From assembly GCA_035549715.1 (NCBI GenBank), contig DASZQJ010000166.1, forward strand, positions 11,544 through 75,543: DNA of 64,000 bases. The letters run 5' to 3'. The translations under genes were made by a program, and so were the position numbers. The notes beneath the pieces are model-generated. The model did no database searches, was not told where the DNA came from, and was given only the letters and a program-made list of their open reading frames with translations. Shown in pieces: positions 47,042 through 48,936 of this stretch. The first letter of the stretch is position 1. Each line of letters opens with the position of its first letter. Origin of the DNA: Burkholderiales bacterium. GTDB lineage: Bacteria; Pseudomonadota; Gammaproteobacteria; Burkholderiales; JACQAP01.

Positions 47042-48213
47042 GGCTTGTCGAAGCCCTTCGGCAGGTGCACCACCGTGACGGTGTTGTCCTTGTAGTTGGG
47101 CGACGTGGCCGCCAGCTCGGGGATCACCAGCAGGTAACTGCCGTCACCTTGCTTGCGCACCGCAACGTCGGCCGGGCCGGCCAGCTTGATGTCCTGGTCG
47201 TACGTCAGCGTGTAGGCCTTGCCGGCGGCCGTGGTCACGATCACCGAATTGGTGTTCTTGATCTCGGTATCGATGCGCACATTGCCCGCGAAGTCCAGGC
47301 CGTCGAGCGCGCCGAAGCCCTTGCCGAACGGCGCCGGCAACTTGCCGTTTTCGATGTCCGCCTTCGTGACCTTGTACTGGCCGCCTTCCGCCGGGTCCTT
47401 CATGCCGGCCGCCACGCCCACGGTGTTGAAGTGGATCATGCCGTCCGGGCCGACTTCGATGCCGTCCGGGCCGCCATCCGGCACGGCCAGGTACGAGACT
47501 CTGGCATCCTTGCCTTCGGCGAGGTCGTCGATCGCGTTCTTCGGGAACAGGTAGATGCCGCCGCCCTTGGTGGCGATCGGTGGATCGAACGTGCCGCCGG
47601 CAACACCCGTGTCGGCGAGGTACAAATTACCCGCCTTGTCGAAGGCCAGCGCGTTGGAAAGCGTCGCGGGCACGCCAGCGGCCTTGTAGGCGGCGGAACC
47701 TTCGCCCAGCTTGATCTCGCCCAGCACGTAGCCATCCTCGTTGAAGGCCAGGATCTTAGGATCGTGGTCGGCCTTGTCCTTGACCGGGGCGCCGTCGGGG
47801 TTGGCGCCCGGGGCGTCGGCCAGCGCGACAAAGATCGTGCCCTTGGGGAAGCGCTTGGTCGCCGTGTGGCTCACGGCCATGCCCAAAGGGCCGGTGAGAC
47901 CGATGACCAGCTTCTCGTTGACCATCTTCAGCGTGCCGTCGGATTGCACTTCGAGCTTGCTGATGTAGCCCGACTTGTGGGTCCAGTTGAAGCCGATGTT
48001 GGGGTTCCCCAGCTCGGCGGAATTGGTGATGAAGACGTGCTTGCCGTCGGCGCTGAAGATCGCGCCTTCCGGATTGTCGAAAACGCTGAGTCGCTGGATG
48101 ACTTGTCCCTTGACCGGGTAGTCTGGGCTTTGGGCCATGGCAGTGGTCACCCCGGCTGCCATCAGCAGCGCGCCGAGCAAGGTCAGTGCCGGGACGCGGG
48201 AAGTTCTGGTCAT
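47038..48213 (-). CDS. secreted beta-propeller protein (SMP-30/gluconolactonase/NHL-like)
   Basis: 391-aa ORF with a signal peptide (MTRTSRVPALTLLGALLMAAGVTTAMA). Blade-like motifs repeat (AIFSADGKHVFITN, GMAVSH, ALAFDKAGNLYLADTG, PDGIEVGPDGMIHF). A GAGGAG RBS is present and a perfect ModE box lies 48 nt upstream. Confidence 0.75.
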   Translation of the reverse strand: MTRTSRVPALTLLGALLMAAGVTTAMAQSPDYPVKGQVIQRLSVFDNPEGAIFSADGKHVFITNSAELGNPNIGFNWTHKSGYISKLEVQSDGTLKMVNEKLVIGLTGPLGMAVSHTATKRFPKGTIFVALADAPGANPDGAPVKDKADHDPKILAFNEDGYVLGEIKLGEGSAAYKAAGVPATLSNALAFDKAGNLYLADTGVAGGTFDPPIATKGGGIYLFPKNAIDDLAEGKDARVSYLAVPDGGPDGIEVGPDGMIHFNTVGVAAGMKDPAEGGQYKVTKADIENGKLPAPFGKGFGALDGLDFAGNVRIDTEIKNTNSVIVTTAAGKAYTLTYDQDIKLAGPADVAVRKQGDGSYLLVIPELAATSPNYKDNTVTVVHLPKGFDKP

Positions 48214-48260
48214 TTCGTTGGTCTCCTCGTTGTTTTTTGCTTTGGGGGATGCGATCGATT

Positions 48261-48284
48261 CGTTATATTTCTATGGATATAACG
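48261..48284. promoter_or_regulatory. ModE-type operator (Mo-box) E, perfect
   Basis: CGTTATAT-ttctatgg-ATATAACG matches 16/16 positions and is a perfect palindrome. It lies upstream of the beta-propeller gene. Confidence 0.75.
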
Positions 48285-48347
48285 AAACACGTCCAGTTTG
48301 AAATACGGTCAGCTTCCATTCCGTGGCCTGGCCTGTGATTCGGGGGG

Positions 48348-48377
48348 AAAAATGAGCGGTGCCCGCGAAGGCACCGC
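48348..48377 (-). terminator. intrinsic terminator (minus strand)
   Basis: On the minus strand the sequence reads GCGGUGCC-UUCGCG-GGCACCGC (8-bp GC stem, 48377..48356) followed by UCAUUUUU (48355..48348). Confidence 0.55.
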
Positions 48378-48443
48378 CCCAAGCTCGAAAGGAGGATCGC
48401 GTCGCGGGCTGGGCTCGTTACACCGGTGCTCGCGGCATTCTCC

Positions 48444-48477
48444 GCCGTCGCTATATTCTCTTGGATATAGCGACGGC
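48444..48477. promoter_or_regulatory. ModE-type operator (Mo-box) F, perfect with extended 13-bp arms
   Basis: GCCGTCGCTATAT-tctcttgg-ATATAGCGACGGC. The core CGCTATAT-N8-ATATAGCG matches 16/16 positions. It lies 85 nt downstream of the modE stop and is overlapped by a minus-strand TTGACG (48482..48477). Confidence 0.75.
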
Positions 48478-48561
48478 GTCAAGCATCCAATCTCGAGCCC
48501 TCGAGGTCATCCGGGCTTTCGTTGCTCTTACAAGAACTTGGACCGGTACCGGCCGGTGAGG

Positions 48562-48936
48562 CTAGCGGGGCTCGACCATCAGGTCAGCGAAATCCTCGAG
48601 TTCGCGCGCCACGCTGGCGGTGGCCTTGGCTTCCATGCGCTGGTAACGCGCCAGGATTTCCTTGCCGAACTCGGTCACCCGAGCCCCGCCCCCGCGGCTG
48701 CCGCCGGTGGCGGTCTCGACCAGGGGCGTGCGGAAACACTGGTTCATGGTGTCGACGAGCAGCCAGGCCCGCCGGTACGACATGTCCATCTGGCGGGCCG
48801 CGGCGGAGATGGAGCCGGTCGATTCGATGGCTTTGAGGAGGTCGGCCTTGCCCGGCCCCATGGCGATGGCCTTGCGAAACATGATCCGGATCTGCGGCCG
48901 CGGGCGTGACGAGGATTTTGGCTTCGCCGCCGCCAT
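48562..48936 (-). CDS. modE: ModE-family regulator, DNA-binding domain only (no Mop/TOBE domains)
   Basis: ATG 48936 lies 2 nt after the moaE stop and gives 124 aa. GKADLLKAIESTGSISAAARQMDMSYRRAWLLVDTMNQCFRTPLVETATGGSRGGGARVTEFGKEIL aligns closely with my recollection of the E. coli ModE N-domain (SLLKHIALSGSISQGAKDAGISYKSAWDAINEMNQ...ATGGKGGGGAVLTRYG). Confidence 0.8.
   Translation of the reverse strand: MAAAKPKSSSRPRPQIRIMFRKAIAMGPGKADLLKAIESTGSISAAARQMDMSYRRAWLLVDTMNQCFRTPLVETATGGSRGGGARVTEFGKEILARYQRMEAKATASVARELEDFADLMVEPR

What the first reader, a model, noticed from the sequence alone, without database searches (positions are those of the whole stretch)
48348..48482. Second, extended perfect ModE palindrome lies in the modE 3' region upstream of a terminator: Mo-responsive small RNA, attenuator or autoregulatory roadblock?
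Seen. GCCGTCGCTATAT-N8-ATATAGCGACGGC (48444-48477) has 13-bp perfect arms and is the best site in the window. It lies 85 nt after the modE stop codon, not in front of any ORF of at least 60 aa. On the minus strand a TTGACG (48482-48477) followed 18 nt later by GAATAT overlaps it. About 70-100 nt further downstream is a good intrinsic terminator (GCGGUGCC-UUCGCG-GGCACCGC-UCAUUUUU, 48377-48348). The intervening RNA contains a CCUCCUUUCG stretch, which is anti-Shine-Dalgarno-like. Only after this terminator come box E and the beta-propeller gene. Inference. There are three alternatives. (a) A ModE-repressed sRNA of about 100 nt. (b) A distal promoter plus a terminator-type attenuator for the propeller operon. 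(c) ModE binding in its own 3' UTR acts as a roadblock or insulator.
Basis: partly seen in the sequence, partly recalled or inferred. Interest (0 to 1): 0.55.

Follow-up and report, generated by a model that had tools for sequence, protein, structure and literature searches.

The report
Molybdenum-regulated small RNA gene
Behind the molybdenum-regulator gene modE lies a previously uncatalogued gene for a small RNA of about 100 nt, whose promoter is covered by a perfect ModE binding site and whose conserved unpaired stretch matches the ribosome-binding sites of molybdenum-dependent hydroxylase operons; it may therefore be the first molybdenum counterpart of the iron-sparing RNA RyhB, though nothing has been tested at the bench.

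Summary
The perfect 13-bp-arm ModE palindrome (48444-48477), the overlapping TTGACG promoter and the intrinsic terminator (48379-48348) are all present on the minus strand.

The whole module (promoter, operator, about 100 nt of RNA, terminator) is present once per genome in 19 of 37 species of one uncultured soil Burkholderiales genus and on 12 metagenome contigs. It has strong base-pair covariation and matches no Rfam family.

Ten sister species lack it cleanly, with modE abutting the next promoter. The gene downstream differs between species and always has its own promoter and Mo-box. No conserved antiterminator exists. Option (b), an attenuator, is therefore not supported. Option (c), a roadblock, remains a possible side effect, because the same terminator probably also ends the modE operon.

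The conserved seed CCUCCUUUCGAGCYU pairs best, out of 2640 start regions in this genome, with the first gene of a xanthine-dehydrogenase-family molybdo-hydroxylase operon. Two paralogous operons rank 5th and 12th. Compensatory changes occur in relatives.

My reading is a ModE-controlled RNA that shuts off dispensable molybdoenzymes when molybdenum is scarce.

An earlier report of this scan on the neighbouring propeller operon had already noted this RNA.

The parts
48477..48482 (-). -35 hexamer TTGACG of the sRNA promoter
   Evidence: Found by the promoter scan. TTGAC is invariant at a near-fixed distance (4-5 nt) from the Mo-box in all 27 homologous loci, while the sequence upstream of it is not conserved.
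48444..48477 (.). ModE operator (Mo-box F): GCCGTCGCTATAT-N8-ATATAGCGACGGC. It lies between the -35 and about +1 and covers the -10.
   Evidence: 0 expected by chance. The core CG-TATAT-N8-ATATA-CG is present in every homologous locus. That a ModE protein binds here is inferred from the consensus only.
48455..48460 (-). -10 hexamer GAGAAT (AAGAAT in most relatives), inside the operator
   Evidence: TTGACA-16-AAGAAT, 10 of 12 matches, in G017. GAAT is conserved in the operator spacer here but not in the modB-type Mo-boxes.
48348..48449 (-). Predicted sRNA transcript, about 100 nt. The 5' end is inferred from the -10 (+/- 3 nt); the 3' end is the U-tract.
   Evidence: Covariance models R1 and R2 find one copy per genome in 17 genus genomes and 12 metagenome contigs, at 36-104 bits. 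No Rfam family matches.
48441..48446 (-). 5' strand of helix P1 (GGCGGA)
   Evidence: It pairs with UCCUCC at 48396-48391 in the MFE fold and in nearly all homologues. 84% of cells are paired, with little covariation.
48400..48436 (-). Hairpin P2, with the invariant apical-loop motif AACGAG at 48419-48414
   Evidence: 8 of 8 pairs show compensatory changes and 92% of cells are paired. The loop motif is present in 25 of 27 homologues.
48380..48395 (-). Conserved seed CCUCCUUUCGAGCUUG (3' strand of P1 plus the unpaired linker)
   Evidence: Invariant columns appear. It gives the best duplex of 2640 start regions with the Mo-hydroxylase small-subunit gene C6:11853; paralogues rank 5 and 12.
48348..48379 (-). 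Intrinsic terminator (stem 48379-48354, then AUUUUU). It probably also serves as the terminator of mobB-moaD-moaE-modE.
   Evidence: 8 of 11 pairs covary and 95% of cells are paired. No other terminator lies between the modE stop and this point.

Best explanation
The segment 48482-48348 (minus strand) is an independent gene for a structured small RNA of about 100 nt. It lies in the 3' region of the mobB-moaD-moaE-modE operon.

Promoter and control. Its sigma-70-type promoter (TTGACG, about 16 nt, GAGAAT) is buried in a perfect ModE operator. The RNA should therefore be made only when the Mo-box-binding regulator is off the DNA. By analogy with ModE at modA, and with MopA/MopB in Rhodobacter, that means molybdate starvation. 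This step is inferred.

Structure. The RNA folds into a rod. The 5' GGYGG pairs with CCUCC (helix P1), and hairpin P2 carries an AACGAG loop. An unpaired UUUCGAGCYU follows, then a Rho-independent terminator with a U-tail. This is the usual layout of an Hfq-dependent sRNA, and hfq is present in the genome.

Action. The conserved stretch CCUCCUUUCGAGCYU base-pairs with the sequence GCUCGA(A/U)GGAGG, which covers the Shine-Dalgarno site of the first gene ([2Fe-2S] small subunit) of xanthine-dehydrogenase/IorAB-type molybdo-hydroxylase operons. This would block translation and so stop synthesis of dispensable molybdoenzymes when Mo is short. It would be a molybdenum-sparing response built like Fur-RyhB iron sparing.

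What is shown and what is inferred. Shown in silico: the conservation of the module, its structure, the promoter-operator architecture and the complementarity with co-variation. Inferred: transcription, the direction of the Mo response, Hfq dependence and repression of the targets.
For: Conservation of the module. One copy per genome was found in 17 of 37 genus genomes with CM R1. Two more turned up on inspection of modE loci: G006, cut by a contig end, and G009, a diverged variant. Twelve soil or rhizosphere metagenome contigs also carry it. There were no true hits in about 147 genomes of the other families of the order. The 3 weak hits are bare terminators without a Mo-box.

Promoter and operator. 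TTGAC plus the Mo-box plus GAAT are present in all 27 loci, although the model did not include them.

Structure. 91.6% of cells are paired, against 79.7% in shuffles and 41-48% for slid partners. 18 of 26 pairs show double changes. P2 has 8 of 8 covarying pairs and the terminator 8 of 11.

Independence from neighbours. The downstream gene is either the propeller gene or modBC, each with its own TTGAC promoter and Mo-box. Ten sister genomes have modE directly followed by the modB promoter. No conserved antiterminator exists.

Targets in this genome. With the conserved 16-nt seed, the best of 2640 start regions in G000 is the Fer2_2 small-subunit gene on C6 (-23.4 kcal/mol; mean -12.6, sd 2.8). 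Its paralogues on C16 and C124 rank 5 and 12. The chance of 3 of the 4 paralogues falling in the top 12 is 3e-7. Each is followed by a MoCoBD large subunit. Among plausible 5' leaders, GCUCGAA at -20 to -23 occurs only at these three genes and one other, C47; the remaining five hits are GTG, TTG or ATG candidates at other distances that I judged, without checking them, to lie inside coding sequence.

Targets in relatives. In 10 of 14 genomes the genome's own seed against its own C6-type start region ranks within the top 14 of the 2640-gene background. Several changes look compensatory, although some mRNA variants also occur in genomes without the sRNA (see evidence against). sRNA UUUGAGC goes with mRNA GCUCAA in G001 and G023. 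sRNA GAGCC goes with mRNA GGCUC. G023 CUCCCCUU goes with AAGGGGAG. The G019 loop CGAGAUCC goes with GGAUCUCG. Six orthologues outside the genus lack GCUCGA.

Other points. The operon co-occurs with the sRNA in 15 of 19 genomes that have it, against 3 of 10 that lack it (p = 0.017). An A-rich tract lies just upstream of the mRNA site. hfq is present.
Against: The local ModE is only the DNA-binding domain, and the genome has no stand-alone Mop/TOBE protein. Whether and in which direction molybdate controls the box is therefore unproven.

CCUCC is predicted to be paired within P1, so part of the seed is not free.

The seed contains an anti-SD, which favours any strong SD.

Gene calls for the background were crude (GC-frame filter).

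Two sRNA-less relatives (G008, G022) keep the GCUCGAUGGAGG motif. The diverged sRNAs of G014, G015, G024 and G009 pair poorly with their orthologues.

The C16-type motif also occurs in a genome of another family that has no sRNA hit (G039). GCUCAA variants occur in sRNA-less genus members.

Relatives are close kin, so the counts are not independent. The seed definition was refined once after a first look.
Confidence: 0.55

Rival explanations
1. The sRNA gene is real and ModE-box controlled, but it acts otherwise than by repressing Mo-hydroxylase translation. It could have other mRNA targets, act as a protein-binding or sponge RNA through the repeated CGAG motifs, or bind a small ligand.
For: Two near-identical invariant motifs, AACGAG in the apical loop and UUCGAGC in the linker, are not both explained by the target model. 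The loop gave no target signal, with ranks of about 700-2600. CCUCC is sequestered in P1. Some sRNA-bearing genomes lack the C6-type operon: G007, G023, G031 and G006, whose truncated copy was found.
Against: The seed-to-RBS match is the top hit genome-wide. It recurs at paralogues and orthologues with compensatory changes. No alternative partner was found.
Confidence: 0.22
2. The region is primarily the 3' end of the mobB-moaDE-modE operon. The terminator ends that transcript, and ModE bound at box F acts as an autoregulatory roadblock or insulator. The RNA conservation then reflects 3'-UTR stability elements and not a separate regulator.
For: No other terminator follows the modE stop. The module lies 100-245 nt after modE in 23 of 24 loci that extend far enough upstream.
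Against: A full promoter (invariant TTGAC, conserved -10) is kept inside the 3' region. In G021 the module lies apart from modE, on a different contig with different upstream DNA. Ten relatives end the modE operon without this element. The invariant unpaired motifs and their match to distant RBSs are not needed for a terminator.
Confidence: 0.13
3. It is a cis-acting leader or terminator-type attenuator (or riboswitch) of the downstream Mo-regulated operon, fed by a distal promoter.
For: It is always co-oriented with, and 50-300 nt upstream of, a Mo-box-controlled operon. It has a compact, conserved fold ending in a terminator.
Against: The downstream operon differs (propeller gene or modBC) and always carries its own -35, -10 and Mo-box. 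There is no conserved alternative pairing of the terminator's 5' arm, and the terminator adds 10-25 kcal/mol. The Moco riboswitch and every other Rfam family fail to match. Relatives without the element keep the same downstream promoter.
Confidence: 0.07
4. The region encodes a small protein.
For: Mechanical ORFs overlap it: 57 aa on the minus strand at 48482-48309 and 66 aa on the plus strand at 48359-48559.
Against: Homologues differ in length by indels that are not multiples of three (92-112 nt). Substitutions are compensatory within helices. Short ORFs differ in frame and length between genomes.
Confidence: 0.03

Closest known systems
RyhB (E. coli) and its analogues PrrF, NrrF and FsrA: Fur-repressed iron-sparing sRNAs
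   Same: The logic proposed is the same. A metal-sensing repressor's operator overlaps the sRNA promoter. The sRNA has a Rho-independent terminator and U-tail. It pairs with the translation-initiation regions of operons for non-essential enzymes that need the scarce metal.
   Different: There is no sequence or structural relationship (no Rfam hit). The regulator is ModE-type and the metal is molybdenum. The predicted targets are XDH-family molybdo-hydroxylases. It is restricted to one uncultured genus. Nothing has been shown experimentally. I found no ModE-controlled sRNA in the held literature.
3'-UTR-embedded sRNAs with their own promoter (type I: DapZ, MicL)
   Same: The sRNA gene sits in the 3' region of a protein-coding operon (modE). 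It has an internal promoter and shares the operon's terminator.
   Different: Here the promoter lies after the stop codon, not inside the coding sequence. The host operon encodes the very regulator whose box controls the sRNA.
ModE-molybdate repression at the modA operator (E. coli), and MopA/MopB at Mo-boxes (Rhodobacter capsulatus; PMC6925177)
   Same: There is a palindromic CG-TATAT-N-ATATA-CG operator overlapping the core promoter, and a neighbourhood of Mo uptake and Moco genes.
   Different: The controlled gene is non-coding. The local ModE lacks the di-Mop molybdate-binding domain.
Moco/Tuco riboswitch (Rfam RF01055)
   Same: It is an RNA element associated with molybdenum-cofactor and molybdate-transport loci, and is the only RNA-based Mo regulation I know of.
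   Different: It is a cis-acting metabolite sensor in 5' leaders. The present RNA does not match RF01055 even at E = 10. It has its own promoter and a constitutive terminator, and is not a leader.

Membership tests
ModE operator (Mo-box) | Inverted repeat with a TATAT / ATATA core flanked by CG, half-sites about 8 nt apart | tested here: met
   CGCTATAT-N8-ATATAGCG matches with 0 mismatches and the arms extend to 13 bp. 0.14 matches to the CG-flanked pattern (up to 3 mismatches) are expected in shuffles, and 0.00 for the TATAT/ATATA core.
ModE operator (Mo-box) | Overlaps the core promoter of the regulated gene | tested here: met
   It lies between the -35 TTGACG and about +1 and covers the -10. 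The same geometry is found in 27 loci.
ModE operator (Mo-box) | Bound by ModE in a molybdate-dependent way | not testable with these tools
   The local ModE is 124 aa and HTH only (TIGR00637 at 91.6 bits, no Mop domain). The only TOBE domains in the genome lie in long ORFs of 367-585 aa, taken to be ABC-transporter ATPases but not checked.
Trans-acting (Hfq-type) base-pairing sRNA | Own promoter and Rho-independent terminator, no conserved ORF, about 50-300 nt | tested here: met
Trans-acting (Hfq-type) base-pairing sRNA | Conserved, at least partly unpaired seed complementary to mRNA start regions encoded elsewhere | tested here: met
   The seed CCUCCUUUCGAGCYU ranks first of 2640 start regions against the C6 iorA-type gene. 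Paralogues and orthologues support it, with compensatory changes. This is in silico only.
Trans-acting (Hfq-type) base-pairing sRNA | Detected as a discrete transcript; regulates its targets; binds Hfq | not testable with these tools
The hfq gene is present.
Moco riboswitch RF01055 / any Rfam family | Match to the family covariance model | tested here: not met
   There is no match at gathering score anywhere in the window. Within 47900-48900 nothing beats E = 0.77, and the only hit in the element is a terminator-like match to sbrA at E = 1.1.
Terminator-type attenuator / riboswitch expression platform | Conserved alternative (antiterminator) pairing that competes with the terminator | tested here: not met
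   RNAs truncated before the 3' arm keep P1 and P2. The 5' arm has no conserved upstream partner in the 27 sequences.
Terminator-type attenuator / riboswitch expression platform | The downstream gene depends on the upstream promoter | tested here: not met
   Downstream operons differ, and each has its own -35, -10 and Mo-box. Relatives without the element keep that promoter.

The most novel reading that the evidence does not exclude
This is the first riboregulator of molybdenum homeostasis. A ModE-operator-controlled sRNA, made when molybdate is scarce, silences xanthine-dehydrogenase-family molybdo-hydroxylase operons by pairing across their ribosome-binding sites. That would extend the 'metal-sparing sRNA' principle from iron to molybdenum, and would add a post-transcriptional arm to the ModE regulon.
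Probability: 0.5. Interest if true: 0.75.

Novelty: new variant of a known kind. Interest (0 to 1): 0.62.

Why it matters
Iron homeostasis has a well-studied small-RNA arm. For molybdenum, the regulation I know of is ModE-type repression and activation of transcription plus the cis-acting Moco riboswitch. I found no ModE-controlled sRNA in Rfam 15 or in the held literature.

A Mo-box-controlled sRNA aimed at molybdoenzyme operons would show how bacteria ration a trace metal that is often limiting in soil. It would extend the ModE regulon to a non-coding gene. It would also supply a compact promoter, operator and sRNA module with a predicted target site that can be tested in E. coli reporters.

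The finding also sharpens an open question. In this genus ModE is reduced to its DNA-binding domain, so how molybdate is sensed at these perfect operators is unknown.

Tried and rejected
- **Rfam.** I searched at gathering score (whole window) and at E up to 10 (47900-48900). Only chance-level hits appeared.
- **Pattern scan of genome contigs.** Of the 119 loci, only 5 were true matches, and all belong to genus members already found. It therefore adds names (uncultured soil, glacier and other Betaproteobacteria/Burkholderiales MAGs) but gives no complete census.
- **Weak CM hits outside the genus.** G094, G164, G173, L056 and L143 scored only 26-36 bits. On inspection G094, G164 and G173 are terminators without a Mo-box. 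L056 and L143 scored equally low and were not inspected.
- **Apical loop as a seed.** AACGAG gave no enrichment at the hydroxylase start regions. The exception is the variant loop of G019.
- **Antiterminator or riboswitch platform.** None is conserved.
- **Coding potential.** No conserved frame exists.
- **First target run.** Using a 22-nt G000-specific segment and allowing large loops gave a noisy list. I replaced it with the conserved 16-nt seed. This is one refinement step that a reader should bear in mind.
- **13-mer search for the exact seed complement.** It found only the sRNA gene itself at 0 mismatches.
- **Literature.** Searches for a ModE- or molybdenum-controlled sRNA found nothing relevant.

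Full report
**1. The observation**

All genes in this part of the window run on the minus strand:

| Feature | Coordinates |
|---|---|
| mobB | 50291-49710 |
| moaD | 49671-49390 |
| moaE | 49388-48939 |
| modE, 124 aa, DNA-binding domain only (TIGR00637, 91.6 bits) | 48936-48562 |
| Intergenic region, 348 nt | 48561-48214 |
| Secreted 391-aa protein gene | 48213-47038 |

- The palindrome GCCGTCGCTATAT-N8-ATATAGCGACGGC lies at 48444-48477 and has perfect arms.
- TTGACG lies at 48482-48477. The scan pairs it with GAGAAT at 48460-48455.
- The terminator stem is at 48379-48354, followed by AUUUUU to 48348.
- CCUCCUUUCG is at 48395-48386.

The core TATAT-N6-10-ATATA occurs only here and at box E (48264-48281). 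Shuffles of the window give 0.00. Neither Rfam search gave a meaningful match.

**2. A conserved module, not a chance arrangement**

A DNA search of relatives showed that 48484-48343 is conserved at 70-74% identity in several genomes of the same genus. The surrounding intergenic DNA is not conserved.

I built a covariance model from the transcribed part only, leaving out the -35 and the left operator arm. The results were:

- Exactly one copy in 17 of 37 genus genomes.
- No real hit in about 147 genomes from the other families of the order. The three weak hits are bare terminators without a Mo-box.
- A pattern scan of metagenomes added 12 soil and rhizosphere contigs.

Contig names identify the genus members as uncultured Betaproteobacteria/Burkholderiales MAGs.

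All 27 loci carry the same upstream elements, although these were not part of the model: an invariant TTGAC, the Mo-box at 4-5 nt from it, and a conserved (A)AGAAT -10 inside the operator spacer. Sequence further upstream is unrelated between loci. In G017 the promoter scores 10 of 12.

**3. Structure**

| Helix | Support |
|---|---|
| P2 hairpin | Compensatory changes at 8 of 8 pairs |
| Terminator | Compensatory changes at 8 of 11 pairs |
| P1 (5' GGYGG with CCUCC, plus CGA with UCG) | 84-89% of cells paired; mostly conserved, little covariation |

Overall 91.6% of cells are paired. Column shuffles give 79.7% and slid partners give 41-48%. P1 appears in nearly every individual MFE fold.

The invariant elements outside these helices are the apical loop AACGAG and the linker UUUCGAGCYU just before the terminator.

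RNAs truncated before the terminator's 3' arm show no conserved antiterminator. Length differences that are not multiples of three, together with helix-compensating substitutions, rule out a conserved ORF.

**4. Context**

In 23 of the 24 loci that extend far enough upstream, the module follows moaD-moaE-modE by 100-245 nt. In G021 it lies elsewhere, on a different contig from modE.

The next gene downstream is either the propeller gene (as here) or modBC. Each has its own -35, -10 and Mo-box.

I then inspected the modE loci of the genomes where the model had found nothing:

- One has the sRNA cut by a contig end (G006).
- One has a diverged variant (G009, similar to G019).
- Ten have modE running straight into the modB promoter.

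The module is therefore a discrete unit that is either present or absent. That argues against a leader of the downstream operon.

No terminator lies between the modE stop and the module. The sRNA terminator therefore probably also ends the modE operon transcript, as with 3'-UTR-embedded sRNAs that keep their own promoter. A roadblock effect of ModE bound at box F on that read-through cannot be excluded.

**5. What it may regulate**

I called genes crudely in the window's own genome, using long ORFs with high GC3 and GC1 above GC2. This gave 2905 ORFs, of which 2640 have an SD-like start. I computed duplex energies between the conserved 16-nt seed CCUCCUUUCGAGCUUG and positions -40 to +10 of each start.

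- The best gene of all is C6:11853-11404 (-23.4 kcal/mol; mean -12.6, sd 2.8). It encodes a 149-aa [2Fe-2S] protein with the Fer2_2 domain typical of xanthine dehydrogenase/aldehyde oxidase-family enzymes. A 773-aa MoCoBD large subunit follows it.
- Two of its three paralogues rank 5th (C16) and 12th (C124). Each heads an operon with a MoCoBD large subunit, and one operon also carries XdhC.
- Three of four paralogues falling in the top 12 of 2640 has a hypergeometric probability of 3e-7. The paralogues' leaders may not be fully independent of one another.
- Among plausible 5' leaders, the heptamer GCUCGAA at -20 to -23 is found only at these three genes and one other, C47. I did not verify that the remaining hits lie inside coding sequence.

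The predicted duplex covers the SD. An A-rich tract lies just upstream on the mRNA.

**6. Comparative test of the pairing**

C6-type orthologues in the genus keep UUUCA(A/G)GCUCGAUGGAGG in front of the start codon. I compared each genome's own seed with its own orthologue and ranked the duplex against the 2640-gene background. It falls within the top 14 in 10 of 14 genomes, with z scores of about -3 to -4.

Changes on the two partners match each other:

| sRNA | mRNA | Where |
|---|---|---|
| UUUGAGC | GCUCAA | G001 (both paralogues) and G023 |
| ...GAGCC | GGCUC | Several genomes |
| ...GAGCU | AGCUC, or GGCUC with a wobble pair | Several genomes |
| CUCCCCUU | AAGGGGAG | G023, at its C16-type gene |
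| CGAGAUCC (variant apical loop) | GGAUCUCG, between SD and AUG | G019 |

Six orthologues (77-82% identical) from other families lack GCUCGA. The operon is present in 15 of 19 sRNA-bearing genomes and in 3 of 10 confirmed sRNA-less genomes (p = 0.017; the genomes are kin and not independent).

Counter-observations:

- G008 and G022 lack the sRNA but keep the motif.
- The diverged sRNAs of G014, G015, G024 and G009 pair poorly with their orthologues.
- The C16-type motif also occurs in one genome of another family (G039).
- The apical loop is unexplained by this model.

**7. Mechanism proposed**

- Shown in silico: the module, its fold, the operator-over-promoter geometry, and the seed-to-RBS complementarity with co-variation.
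- Inferred from ModE/MopA/MopB biology (repression at Mo-boxes in the presence of molybdate; PMC6925177, PMC11672702): the sRNA is made when molybdate is scarce.
- Inferred from the general behaviour of Hfq-type sRNAs (hfq is present): pairing over the SD blocks translation of the small subunit and, through coupling, of the whole hydroxylase operon. This would spare molybdenum cofactor for other enzymes. The five bis-MGD-type enzymes in the genome were not among the top predicted targets.

The largest open step is sensing. ModE here has no Mop domain and the genome has no stand-alone Mop protein. A second ModE-type HTH fused to a periplasmic-binding-protein-like domain exists next to formate-dehydrogenase genes. 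It could be the true molybdate sensor at these boxes.

**8. Comparison and novelty**

The design resembles Fur-RyhB-type metal sparing, and also type-I 3'-UTR sRNAs. It is not a member of any Rfam family and is not a Moco riboswitch. I found no report of a ModE- or molybdenum-controlled sRNA in the searched literature.

An earlier report of this scan on the adjacent propeller operon (e1-3211409) had already remarked on 'a previously undescribed small RNA just upstream'. The present work confirms that independently and adds the structure, the distribution, the presence/absence pattern and the predicted regulon.

**9. Verdict**

| Claim | Confidence |
|---|---|
| This is an independent, Mo-box-controlled sRNA gene | About 0.8 |
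| It represses molybdo-hydroxylase operons | About 0.55 |

Noticed in passing
G000 contig C2:34596-35681 (locus L172:1441-2526, plus strand); outside the window: There is a second ModE-type HTH protein of 361 aa. Its C-terminal part looks like a periplasmic-binding-protein-type ligand domain (judged by eye, not scanned against Pfam). It is divergent from a NuoE/FdsG-like gene and lies near a formate-dehydrogenase-type molybdopterin enzyme (C2:30181-31476). It could be the real molybdate or tungstate sensor in a genome whose ModE lacks a Mop domain.
   Followed up: partly
window 48562-48936 (minus strand), and the whole genome: ModE is reduced to the DNA-binding domain in every genus member examined (about 120-124 aa). 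The only TOBE-domain hits in the genome lie in long ORFs of 367-585 aa, not in a stand-alone Mop protein. How molybdate would be sensed is unclear.
   Followed up: partly
L254 (G035) and L249 (G029), downstream of modE: In G035 about 250 nt with inverted-repeat ends (gatcaaggaagctctgatcaggttcc ... ggaacttgatcagagcttcc) splits the modB promoter between its -35 and its Mo-box. G029's contig ends inside the same kind of sequence. This looks like a small MITE-like insertion in the Mo-regulated promoter.
   Followed up: no
L030 (G019) and L257 (G009, downstream of modE): This is a variant lineage of the sRNA. The apical loop reads CYGAGAUCC in place of AACGAG, and the CCUCC strand is replaced (in G019 the polarity of the P1 strands is swapped). 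In G019 the loop is perfectly complementary (8 nt) to GGAUCUCG between the SD and the AUG of its Mo-hydroxylase orthologue.
   Followed up: partly
modE loci of G002, G006, G008, G025 and G029: Several MAGs have contig breaks within about 200 nt after modE. CM-negative results in fragmented genomes therefore under-count the sRNA; G006 carries a truncated copy.
   Followed up: yes
window 48444-48477 and homologous loci: The operator arms often extend as a palindrome beyond the CG of the Mo-box, with matching changes on both sides (CCGTCG/CGACGG, CCATCG/CGATGG, AGTCG/CGACT). The left arm lies upstream of the predicted start, so this would be a DNA-level constraint (a longer ModE footprint), not an RNA helix.
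   Followed up: no
L275 (G039, another family of the order): The C16-type Mo-hydroxylase small-subunit gene carries the same leader motif, GCUCGAAGGGGGAG, in a genome where the sRNA model finds nothing. Either the motif predates the sRNA or a very diverged counterpart exists there.
   Followed up: no
G000 C108:3840-4661 (L174:840-1661): The second-best predicted target is a 273-aa protein with no Pfam match. Its SD region, CCUCGAGGGGAGGA, can form 13 consecutive pairs with the seed. Its function and conservation were not examined.
   Followed up: no
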